A stretch of 31,326 bases of DNA from an uncultured bacterium (GCA_937959175.1 CALGAS010000257.1:1-31326), one strand, 5' to 3'; numbered from the stretch's first letter, positions 17,305-17,362 are shown. The notes: a model not told the origin generated them from the sequence alone. Numbers and translations: made by a program.

Positions 17305-17362
17305 TTCGCTTTCCTCCCAAGAGCATCCAGGAAAGCGAATGTGAGAAGCGTGTCGGATGCTC
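17305..17362 (+). ncRNA. Predicted H-type pseudoknot in the 5' leader of the small basic ORF
   Basis: Stem 1: 17305-15 with 17329-39, 11 perfect Watson-Crick pairs. Stem 2: 17321-28 (GAGCATCC) with 17355-62 (GGATGCTC), 8 perfect pairs. Confidence 0.6.

What the first reader, a model, noticed from the sequence alone, without database searches (positions are those of the whole stretch)
17305..17362. Perfect H-type pseudoknot ending 5 nt before the Shine-Dalgarno of the peptide ORF
Seen: S1 = UUCGCUUUCCU/AGGAAAGCGAA (11 bp). Loop 1 = CCCAA. S2 = GAGCAUCC/GGAUGCUC (8 bp). There is no linker between S2 and S1, and loop 3 is 15 nt. That is 19 Watson-Crick pairs in canonical coaxial H-type topology. 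Known: leader pseudoknots next to an SD serve as riboswitch aptamers (preQ1, SAM-II) and as autoregulatory operators for ribosomal proteins (S15). Inference: an uncharacterised cis-regulatory RNA, possibly bound by the basic peptide itself.
Basis: partly seen in the sequence, partly recalled or inferred. Interest (0 to 1): 0.8.

Follow-up and report, generated by a model that had tools for sequence, protein, structure and literature searches.

The report
Conserved pseudoknot leader of polylysine gene
The pseudoknot is real: it is one member of a previously undescribed RNA family, found once per genome in most Pirellulales planctomycetes, always about 20 bases ahead of the start codon of a tiny lysine-rich, histone-H1-like gene, and it most likely controls how much of that DNA-coating polycation is made.

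Summary
S1 is 17305-15/17329-39 and can be extended to 13 bp (17303-15/17329-41). S2 is 17321-28/17355-62. There is no linker between S2 and S1, and S2 ends 5 nt before the SD.

Comparative evidence shows the fold is not chance.
- In 91 leaders from the order Pirellulales, S1 shows compensatory changes at all 13 pairs.
- S2 was never modelled as pairs in the search models. It shows compensatory changes at 8 of 8 pairs and is 93% paired, against 36-47% for slid controls.
- 87 of 151 sampled Pirellulales genomes have a hit, nearly always one each. About 115 genomes of other orders of the class gave 1 weak hit, and 150 further genomes of the phylum gave none.
- 90 of 91 hits lie directly before a Lys/Ala/Thr-rich ORF (MAKKK.../MATKKK..., 15-112 aa as read, often with SPKK motifs).

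Geometry is fixed: L1 is 3-5 nt, the junction 0 nt, L3 11-15 nt, and the pseudoknot ends about 20 nt before AUG. Loop sequences are not conserved outside the window's own family. Rfam 15 has no match, and no conserved anti-SD alternative was found.

My best reading (about 0.45) is a translational operator, probably closed by the polycationic product itself in the manner of T4 gene 32 or r-protein leaders. No RNA-seq data could be consulted.

The parts
17184..17234 (+). Promoter-like region. It has an A/T-rich stretch, the -35 hexamer TTGACA (17205-17210), an 18-nt spacer and a -10-like CACAAC (17229-17234). The inferred TSS is near 17240.
   Evidence: TTGACA and CACAAC are invariant in the genus alignment. 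The same layout, TTGAC(A/G)-N15-TGnTTCAAT, lies 21-211 nt before the element in 55 of 63 loci across the order. The simple sigma-70 scan did not call it. The TSS is not mapped.
17242..17297 (+). P0, a long 5'-proximal hairpin of the leader. The outer stem is 17242-17250/17289-17297. In relatives the apical loop is AGYGAU, closed by GUG/CAC.
   Evidence: RNAalifold on 27 genus and family leaders predicts 16 pairs, 14 of them with compensatory changes. Its sequence is variable and its structure is kept. It was seen in the window's own family only.
17303..17315 (+). S1 5' arm (13 nt, including the 2-bp extension CG at 17303-17304).
   Evidence: Compensatory changes at 10/11, 11/13, 13/13 and 13/13 pairs.
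17316..17320 (+). Loop 1 (CCCAA), which crosses the deep groove of S2.
   Evidence: Its length is 3-5 nt in 77 of 90 members. Its sequence is not conserved outside the window's own family.
17321..17328 (+). S2 5' arm (GAGCAUCC), lying inside the S1 hairpin loop and abutting the S1 3' arm with no linker.
   Evidence: S2 is 100% paired in 28 distinct sequences, 96% in 53 and 93% in 91, with compensatory changes at 8/8 pairs. S2 was not modelled as pairs in any search model. The junction is 0 nt in 80 of 90 members.
17329..17341 (+). S1 3' arm (13 nt).
   Evidence: As for the S1 5' arm.
17342..17354 (+). Loop 3, which spans the shallow groove of S1. It begins with the family-specific GUGAGA motif (the G at 17341 is the last S1 pair).
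   Evidence: Its length is 11-15 nt in 78 of 90 members. GUGAGA is conserved only within the window's own family.
17355..17362 (+). S2 3' arm (GGAUGCUC). Its last base is at -20 relative to the A of AUG.
   Evidence: The distance from the end of S2 to GGAG has a median of 8 nt and is 6-9 nt in 76 of 90 members.
17368..17386 (+). Ribosome-binding region. It holds the SD AAGGAG (17368-17373) and a small hairpin GCCAU (17373-17377) / AUGGC (17382-17386) that encloses the start codon. AGGAGCCA...AUGGC is nearly invariant across the order.
   Evidence: The pairs GCCA:UGGC are kept in 89-90 of 91 leaders, but no covariation is possible there. The hairpin is worth -5.4 kcal/mol. The GGAG-to-AUG spacer is 8 nt in 65 of 90 members. 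The alternative hairpin 17363-67/17373-77, which puts the SD in a loop, is weakly supported and confined to the window's own family.
17382..17450 (+). The regulated ORF: 22 codons plus stop, MAKKKKKAAKKVAKKKKKKGHG.
   Evidence: MAKKKKKAAKKVAKKKKGHG is nearly invariant in 29 genus loci. In other families the orthologous position holds ORFs rich in Lys, Ala, Thr and Ser, up to 112 aa as read (some read-outs were capped), with SPKK/RSPKK motifs. Pfam and NCBIfam give no hit.
17601..17645 (+). Intrinsic terminator closing the monocistronic unit: a 14-bp G+C-rich stem followed by a T-run.
   Evidence: Terminator scan. This stretch is 93-98% identical across the genus.

Best explanation
SHOWN. The element is a genuine H-type pseudoknot that selection maintains. 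It lies in the 5' leader of a monocistronic gene for a small polycationic, histone-H1-like protein. It defines an RNA family that is widespread in the order Pirellulales and occurs nearly always once per genome.

Its geometry is fixed. S1 has 8-13 bp, L1 3-5 nt, S2 7-8 bp, the junction 0 nt and L3 11-15 nt. Its 3' edge lies about 20 nt before the AUG. Next to it is a nearly invariant AGGAGCCA...AUGGC ribosome-binding region.

INFERRED. The pseudoknot is a translational operator. Its 3' edge lies 6 nt before the AGGAG core of the SD in the window (median 8 nt to GGAG across the family), which I infer, from general knowledge of bacterial translation initiation and not from any test here, is where a 30S subunit docks on the mRNA. 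The folded, coaxially stacked rod of roughly 20 bp does not base-pair with the SD or the AUG. It would therefore act sterically, as a docking site for a repressor.

The most economical repressor is the gene's own product. When the lysine-rich protein exceeds the capacity of its main target (I assume DNA), it would bind and stabilise the charge-dense pseudoknot. It might then spread over the adjacent 8-nt linker and the SD/AUG hairpin, excluding or trapping the 30S subunit. This would be negative feedback on a potentially toxic nucleic-acid-coating protein.

The logic is that of T4 gene 32 and of ribosomal-protein leaders. It is not that of a metabolite riboswitch.
For: Structure
- Both helices covary. 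In 91 leaders S1 shows compensatory changes at 13/13 pairs and S2 at 8/8. Overall 87.9% of cells are paired, against 36-47% when partners are slid. 0 of 500 shuffles reach the observed covariation score.
- S2 was left unpaired in models R1-R3, so its counts are not fitted to the structure.
- A rough energy estimate favours the knot. S1 as a hairpin is -17.5 and the S2 duplex is -12.7 kcal/mol, against a best nested fold of -30.0 kcal/mol that can hold only one of the two helices.

Exclusive link to one gene family
- 90 of 91 hits are directly 5' of ORFs with 30-63% Lys+Arg that begin with MA.
- The one hit outside the order (L151) also precedes such an ORF.
- There is nearly always one hit per genome.
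- I take such exclusivity to be typical of autogenous operators, whereas riboswitches usually serve several gene families.

Position
- The distance from the end of S2 to GGAG is 6-9 nt in 76 of 90 members. The GGAG-to-AUG spacer is 8 nt in 65 of 90.

Shape rather than sequence is conserved
- Outside the window's own family, conserved bases lie only in the stems and the ribosome-binding region. This is what a low-complexity polycation that recognises charge and shape would need.

Precedent
- T4 gp32 is a sequence-independent nucleic-acid binder. It represses its own mRNA, and a 5' pseudoknot serves as the nucleation site (PMC535899, read).
- Translation of the chlamydial H1-like gene hctA is also under tight post-transcriptional control (PMC3469542, listed).
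Against: - No experiment or expression data bear on this.
- A 20-residue Lys/Ala peptide, or a low-complexity Lys-rich protein, is not an obvious specific RNA binder.
- The proteins diverge greatly across the order while the RNA keeps its form.
- The pseudoknot does not occlude the SD or the AUG by pairing. A knot ending at -20 might be tolerated by the ribosome, or might even help it.
- About 40% of the sampled Pirellulales genomes gave no hit.
- Other lysine-rich genes, which have a GUG start and a different leader, lack the knot. Pseudoknot control is therefore not a general need of such proteins.
Confidence: 0.45

Rival explanations
1. The pseudoknot is a constitutive structural element with no ligand or repressor. 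It would set a fixed translation rate by limiting the single-stranded standby site 5' of the SD. It could also, or instead, protect a very abundant and otherwise unstructured purine-rich mRNA from decay, or insulate the ribosome-binding region from the pyrimidine-rich parts of the leader.
For: - Loop sequences are not conserved.
- No alternative pairing that sequesters the SD is conserved (mean z -0.2).
- The promoter is strong-looking and highly conserved, and the unit has a 5' hairpin P0 and a strong terminator. These features suit a highly expressed, stabilised message.
Against: - A simple hairpin would serve for stability or for limiting standby space.
- Keeping a two-helix knot with a zero-nucleotide junction and narrow loop lengths in 23 of the 28 sampled families suggests that the three-dimensional form itself is recognised.
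- P0 already occupies the 5'-terminal position where stabilisers act.
Confidence: 0.25
2. The pseudoknot is an operator for a different trans-acting factor. Candidates are another RNA-binding protein (a global regulator, a ribosomal protein or an RNase such as RNase III acting on the stacked helix of about 20 bp) or a small RNA. The factor would tie synthesis of the nucleoid polycation to growth phase or the cell cycle.
For: - The conserved shape and position would suit any protein partner.
- In Chlamydia the H1-like gene hctA is repressed by the small RNA IhtA (PMC3469542 and PMC4355289). Trans control of such genes therefore has a precedent in the PVC group.
- Within the window's own family, GUGAG-type motifs recur in the P0 loop and in L3. 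This could mark a family-specific binding site.
Against: - No candidate factor was identified.
- The motif occurs nearly always once per genome and before one gene family only, so such a factor would have a single target of this shape.
- A small-RNA target would be expected to show conserved single-stranded sequence, which is absent outside the window's own family.
Confidence: 0.15
3. The element is a riboswitch or an ion/polyamine sensor. S2 would form only when a small ligand binds (Mg2+, a polyamine, a nucleotide second messenger or similar), as in the preQ1, SAM-II or guanidine-III pseudoknots.
For: - It has H-type topology next to an SD, like several known pseudoknot riboswitches.
- From general knowledge, pseudoknot folding depends on cations. 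A polycation gene might sensibly respond to the cell's cation or polyamine state.
Against: - No Rfam 15 family matches even at E <= 10, nor in six distant members.
- No loop or junction nucleotide is conserved outside the window's own family, so no conserved binding pocket is visible.
- The stems are long and stable without a ligand.
- The SD is not part of the knot.
- Only one gene family is associated.
Confidence: 0.08
4. S1 and S2 never coexist. They would be two alternative states of a switch rather than one pseudoknot.
For: - Covariation proves that each helix forms, but not that both form at the same time.
- The nested MFE fold uses S2 without S1.
Against: - The arms share no nucleotide.
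- Loop lengths are sterically sufficient in all 90 members, and the junction is held at 0-1 nt. That makes sense only for coaxial stacking.
- S1 is transcribed first, and its loop then offers the S2 5' arm.
- Forming both helices is estimated to be more stable than either nested fold.
- No conserved third partner for any arm was found.
Confidence: 0.05

Closest known systems
Translational operator of bacteriophage T4 gene 32 (gp32 autoregulation)
   Same: In both, a 5' RNA pseudoknot lies upstream of the ribosome-binding site of a gene whose product binds nucleic acid without sequence specificity. In T4 the knot is the nucleation site for autogenous translational repression once the primary target is saturated (PMC535899). 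This is the model I propose here.
   Different: - In T4 the knot is about 28 nt and is followed by more than 40 nt of unstructured UUAAA-rich RNA over which gp32 spreads cooperatively.
- Here the knot spans 60 nt in the window (17303-17362), with long G+C-rich stems, and only about 8 nt separate it from the SD core GGAG.
- There is no sequence similarity.
- Repression is not shown here.
Ribosomal-protein leader pseudoknots (E. coli rpsO/S15, alpha-operon/S4, L20 operator)
   Same: These are also leader pseudoknots at the ribosome-binding site. Each is linked to a single gene or operon and is bound by the basic protein it encodes (from established knowledge; rpsO is reviewed in PMC8470358). They share the evolutionary signature seen here: structure conserved, one target per genome.
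   Different: - In the E. coli rpsO leader the SD and AUG lie within the knot, and the 30S subunit is trapped. Here the SD and AUG lie outside it.
- Those leaders mimic an rRNA site. No such mimicry is known or testable here.
- Rfam leader models do not match.
Pseudoknot riboswitches (preQ1-I/II/III, SAM-II, SAM-V, SAM/SAH, guanidine-III, fluoride)
   Same: They have H-type topology with coaxial stacking, lie close to an SD, and act in cis on translation.
   Different: - They have short stems and highly conserved pocket nucleotides, and the SD is usually inside the second helix. They also serve varied metabolic or transport genes.
- Here the stems are long, the loops are not conserved, the SD is outside, and only one gene family follows.
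- No covariance-model match was found.
Post-transcriptional control of chlamydial histone-H1-like gene hctA by the small RNA IhtA
   Same: The regulated product is of the same kind: a small, highly basic, nucleoid-condensing protein of a PVC-group bacterium whose translation is restrained (PMC3469542, PMC4355289).
   Different: The chlamydial mechanism is antisense pairing by a trans-acting small RNA at the start region. It is not a cis pseudoknot. Homology between the proteins or the RNAs is not demonstrable (Pfam and NCBIfam give no hits).
Rhodopirellula-1 motif (Weinberg et al. 2010)
   Same: It is the only previously proposed cis-regulatory RNA motif from planctomycetes that I found, and it is often located 5' of short hypothetical genes (PMC2864571 supplement).
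   Different: It is a bulged hairpin with conserved bases around its foot, it is multi-copy (153 instances) and it has no pseudoknot. Its consensus is unrelated to this element.

Membership tests
H-type (classical) RNA pseudoknot | There are two helices, and the 5' arm of the second lies in the hairpin loop of the first while its 3' arm lies downstream. | tested here: met
   Coordinates were read. The same order of arms is seen in all 90 true family members.
H-type (classical) RNA pseudoknot | Both helices are supported by compensatory base changes. | tested here: met
   S1 shows them at 13/13 pairs and S2 at 8/8 pairs. 0 of 500 shuffles reach the covariation score, and slid controls are 36-47% paired against 87.9%.
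H-type (classical) RNA pseudoknot | Loop lengths are sterically able to span the grooves, and a short junction allows coaxial stacking. | tested here: met
   L1 has a median of 4 nt for a 7-8 bp S2. L3 has a median of 13 nt for an 8-13 bp S1. The junction is 0 nt in 80 of 90 members. Whether both helices form at once was not probed.
Known Rfam families (riboswitches, r-protein leaders, other cis-regulators) | A covariance-model match at or near the family's gathering score. | tested here: not met
   No relevant hit appears at E <= 10 on 17100-17700. The only overlapping hit is PK-BYV at 13 bits against a gathering score of 50. Six distant members give no hit at gathering thresholds.
Metabolite riboswitch (any class) | Highly conserved unpaired nucleotides that form a ligand pocket. 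| tested here: not met
   In 20 leaders from other families, no loop or junction column reaches 70% identity.
Metabolite riboswitch (any class) | Ligand-dependent structural change. | not testable with these tools
   This needs in-line probing or SHAPE.
Autogenous translational operator (T4 gene 32 / r-protein type) | A structured RNA at the ribosome-binding site of a single gene or operon, kept together with that gene. | tested here: met
   90 of 91 hits precede the lysine-rich ORF, nearly always one per genome, with fixed spacing to the SD and AUG.
Autogenous translational operator (T4 gene 32 / r-protein type) | The encoded protein binds the operator and represses its own translation. | not testable with these tools
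RNA-seq access was closed.
Rhodopirellula-1 motif | [quoted passage not shown] | tested here: not met
   The published description and alignment differ in structure and consensus. The present motif is nearly always single-copy.

The most novel reading that the evidence does not exclude
The pseudoknot is a charge- and shape-sensing operator that measures the free pool of the cell's own histone-H1-like polycation. The lysine-rich product, down to a 20-residue peptide, would fold or clamp the knot and so shut off its own translation. This would be the first RNA-based feedback circuit for a bacterial nucleoid-coating protein. It would also be an example of a low-complexity peptide recognising a specific RNA tertiary fold.
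Probability: 0.35. Interest if true: 0.78.

Novelty: new member of a known kind. Interest (0 to 1): 0.62.

Why it matters
This adds a well-supported new family to the catalogue of bacterial cis-acting RNAs, with 90 members and both helices covarying. It comes from a phylum, Planctomycetota, for which I found only one previously proposed cis-regulatory RNA motif.

It also flags a set of tiny lysine-rich genes as being under dedicated post-transcriptional control; the two I looked up (the window's 22-codon ORF and the Blastopirellula marina ORF) are absent from the protein collection searched. That in turn suggests their dosage matters, as it does for chlamydial Hc1 and Hc2.

The system is unusually easy to test. 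The ligand candidate is a 20-22-residue peptide that can be made chemically. The RNA spans about 85 nt from the start of S1 to the start-codon hairpin (17303-17386). Cultured carriers exist, for example Blastopirellula marina DSM 3645.

If autoregulation holds, it would show how a non-specific polycation can be titrated through an RNA fold.

Tried and rejected
1. Conserved anti-SD switch. The pyrimidine-rich S1 5' arm plus L1 could in principle pair with the SD, and the nested MFE fold of the window does this. Across 53 leaders the duplex energy is no better than for shuffled arms (mean z -0.2). Rejected.

2. Hairpin 17363-67/17373-77, which would present the SD in a loop and stack on S2. It is only 88-89% paired, has one pair with a double change, and is absent outside the window's own family. 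It is left as uncertain.

3. Rfam membership. None found.

4. Identity with the Rhodopirellula-1 motif. Rejected.

5. Second copy in the window's own genome. The weak hit at G000:C435:870-929 (21-24 bits) is a lone intergenic hairpin flanked by GUGAGA. It has no S2, no SD and no lysine-rich ORF. It is unrelated or at most a fragment.

6. False positives of the models. L134, L204 and the second hit in L128 lack S2 or a lysine-rich ORF.

7. Leader-peptide attenuation. The run of Lys codons and the terminator 150 nt downstream could suggest it. I did not pursue this, because the peptide itself is conserved as a protein, it is replaced by long lysine-rich proteins in other families, and the terminator ends the unit.

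8. Protein family assignment of the ORFs. Pfam and NCBIfam give nothing. Exact look-up in the protein collection finds neither the window peptide nor the B. marina ORF. 'H1-like' therefore rests on composition and SPKK-type motifs only.

Full report
**Observation.** S1 pairs 17305-17315 with 17329-17339 (11 Watson-Crick pairs). L1 is CCCAA. S2 pairs 17321-17328 with 17355-17362 (8 pairs). No nucleotide separates the S2 5' arm from the S1 3' arm. L3 is 15 nt. The SD AAGGAG (17368-17373) starts 5 nt after S2, and the AUG is at 17382. The ORF reads MAKKKKKAAKKVAKKKKKKGHG.

An exact scan for H-type arrangements with perfect stems of at least 11 and 8 bp finds only this one in the window, on either strand. 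It finds 6 in 100 shuffles. The sequence alone is therefore suggestive but not proof.

A nested-only folding program cannot show the knot. Its MFE fold uses S2 and its centroid uses S1.

**Conservation and covariation.** A DNA search of relatives finds the locus in 33 of 36 other genomes of the same genus. The peptide MAKKKKKAAKKVAKKKKGHG is almost invariant there.
- In 29 aligned leaders (A1), S1 has compensatory changes at 10 of 11 pairs. S2 is paired in 100% of cells, with double changes at 4 of 8 pairs.
- I built covariance models that treat S1 and the start-codon hairpin as pairs but leave S2 as plain sequence (R1-R3). Counts for S2 are therefore not fitted to the structure.
- With 53 diverse leaders (A4), S1 shows compensatory change at 13/13 pairs and S2 at 7/8, with 96% of cells paired.
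- With 91 leaders (A6), S1 shows it at 13/13 and S2 at 8/8, with 93% paired. Overall 87.9% of cells pair, against 36-47% when the partners are slid by 1-3 columns. 0 of 500 shuffles reach the covariation score.
- Relatives also show two further S1 pairs (17303-17341 and 17304-17340), so S1 is 13 bp and L3 13 nt in the window.
- Many G-U pairs place the structure on the + strand.

**Distribution and gene association.** Record titles of syntenic loci identify the organism as a freshwater Pirellulales MAG.
- With the best model (R3), 87 of 151 sampled genomes of the order have a hit. That covers 57 of 100 genera and 23 of 28 families, and all 15 other genomes of the window's own family. There is almost always exactly one hit per genome.
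- A draw from the class gave hits in Pirellulales, plus one weak hit among about 115 genomes of other orders.
- 150 further genomes of the phylum gave none.
- One carrier is Blastopirellula marina DSM 3645.
- Of 91 hits, 90 lie directly 5' of an ORF that begins with MA, has 30-63% Lys+Arg, and is 15-112 aa long as read (some read-outs were capped). Many carry SPKK/RSPKK motifs. The exception lacks S2 and is a false positive.
- These proteins match no Pfam or NCBIfam model. 'Histone-H1-like' is a description by composition, not a membership.

**Anatomy of the leader.**
- A conserved promoter-like layout precedes the element in 55 of 63 loci, by 21-211 nt. It reads TTGAC(A/G), then N15, then TGnTTCAAT. 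In the window's own family it is TTGACA, N18, CACAAC. In the window it lies at 17205-17234, which puts the inferred TSS near 17240.
- In the window's own family a long covarying hairpin P0 follows (17242-17297; 14 of 16 pairs with compensatory change). Then come 5 nt and the knot.
- Geometry is narrowly kept across the order. L1 is 3-5 nt in 77 of 90 members. The junction is 0 nt in 80 of 90. L3 is 11-15 nt in 78 of 90. The distance from the end of S2 to GGAG is 6-9 nt in 76 of 90. The GGAG-to-AUG spacer is 8 nt in 65 of 90. The knot therefore ends at about -20.
- AGGAGCCA...AUGGC is nearly invariant. GCCA can pair with UGGC of the start region, and this pairing is kept in 89-90 of 91 leaders. 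The hairpin is worth -5.4 kcal/mol. No covariation is possible there, so the hairpin is plausible but unproven.
- A strong intrinsic terminator (17601-17645) closes the unit.

**Tests that bear on mechanism.**
1. Rfam 15 gives no match at E <= 10 in the window, and none at gathering score in six distant members.
2. Outside the window's own family, no loop or junction nucleotide is conserved. Only stem positions and the ribosome-binding region are. This argues against a small-molecule pocket.
3. The S1 5' arm plus L1 is not more complementary to the ribosome-binding region than shuffled versions. There is therefore no conserved switch that sequesters the SD.
4. The knot shares no base with the SD or the AUG. 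Any effect on initiation must be steric, tertiary, or through a bound factor.
5. S1 (-17.5 kcal/mol as a hairpin) and S2 (-12.7 as a duplex) together should outweigh the best nested fold (-30.0, which includes the -5.4 start hairpin), even after a pseudoknot penalty of roughly 9-10 kcal/mol. This is a rough estimate.
6. S1 is transcribed first and then presents the S2 5' arm in its loop, so the knot is also the natural folding path (inference).

**Interpretation.** It is shown that this is a conserved RNA pseudoknot, nearly always single-copy, tied to one gene family and held at a fixed distance from the ribosome-binding site.

The inference I favour (about 0.45) is a translational operator. 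A repressor would bind the stacked rod of roughly 20 bp at the 5' edge of the 30S docking region. The simplest candidate is the polycationic product itself, giving feedback once its main target is saturated.
- This is the logic of T4 gene 32, where a non-specific nucleic-acid binder uses a 5' pseudoknot as nucleation site (PMC535899). It is also the logic of ribosomal-protein leaders.
- The exclusive gene association, the single copy, and the conservation of shape rather than sequence all fit.
- Against it: nothing has been measured, the proteins are low-complexity and divergent, and a knot that ends at -20 need not hinder the ribosome.

The rivals are these.
- A constitutive throttle or stabiliser (0.25).
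- An operator for another factor or small RNA, as with IhtA and hctA in Chlamydia (0.15; PMC3469542).
- A riboswitch or cation sensor (0.08).
- Two mutually exclusive helices rather than one knot (0.05).

**Comparison and novelty.** The element works like known leader pseudoknots, but it is not a member of any described family. It fails the Rfam test, and it differs from the Rhodopirellula-1 motif of Weinberg et al. 2010. Literature searches found no description.

I file it as a new member of a known kind, the cis-acting leader pseudoknots. Its gene association is new. I confirmed the peptide's conservation and its H1-like character myself. I could not check its statement that the gene is transcribed.

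**Limits.**
- Genome samples are draws, and the scans used Infernal's strict filters. 'No hit' does not mean absence.
- The covariance models cannot represent the knot itself.
- Related genomes are not independent, so the shuffle statistics overstate significance. The slid-partner controls and the number of distinct pair types do not depend on that.

Noticed in passing
window 17587-17654: The terminator stretch after the peptide gene is 93-98% identical across the genus, while the leader and 3' UTR around it are only 70-86% identical. That is far more conservation than a terminator stem needs. The listed TTG-start ORF 17617-18810 begins inside it.
   Followed up: no
L208-L211 (G054, G039, G043, G055): There is a second family of lysine-rich ORFs with a GUG start and its own conserved ribosome-binding region (roughly CGGAGGACGnACU-GUG-GCn-AAG). 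It has no pseudoknot hit. It occurs in pseudoknot-negative genomes and also in G043, which has a pseudoknot copy elsewhere. Its leader may hold a different structure.
   Followed up: partly
upstream of the element in 55 of 63 loci; window 17205-17234: A very uniform promoter layout, TTGACG-N15-TGnTTCAAT, is seen across Pirellulales families. The window's own family has CACAAC instead of TTCAAT. This hints at the order's -10 consensus and at strong expression.
   Followed up: partly
The CCACAAC half is invariant, but the TTGTGG half is present in only a minority of the 29 genus leaders. The palindrome is probably fortuitous.
   Followed up: partly
window 17260-17275 (P0 loop in relatives) and 17341-17347: Within the window's own family, a GUGAG(Y)GAU-type motif recurs in the apical loop of P0 and at the start of L3. 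It could be a family-specific tertiary contact or a binding site. It is absent in other families.
   Followed up: no
L031 (G000:C599, about 2060-2400 of that contig): The window's own genome encodes a larger protein with an internal KKAxKK repeat region followed by a non-repetitive C-terminal part (MARKTRSIRELRAEAEAAEALGKTTKAKKATKK...). It has no pseudoknot leader.
   Followed up: no
L142 (G000:C435) 870-929: A perfect 9-bp G+C-rich hairpin is flanked on both sides by GUGAGAA. It gave a weak hit of the pseudoknot model (21-24 bits) in an intergenic stretch. It is probably unrelated.
   Followed up: partly
window 15838-17088 and loci L032-L111: The pseudoknot and lysine-rich gene unit lies downstream of the gene at 15838-17088, which I take from memory to be an inositol-1-phosphate-synthase-like gene (not tested here). 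This holds in the window and also in distant families (L104, L070). The locus is therefore orthologous across the order.
   Followed up: partly
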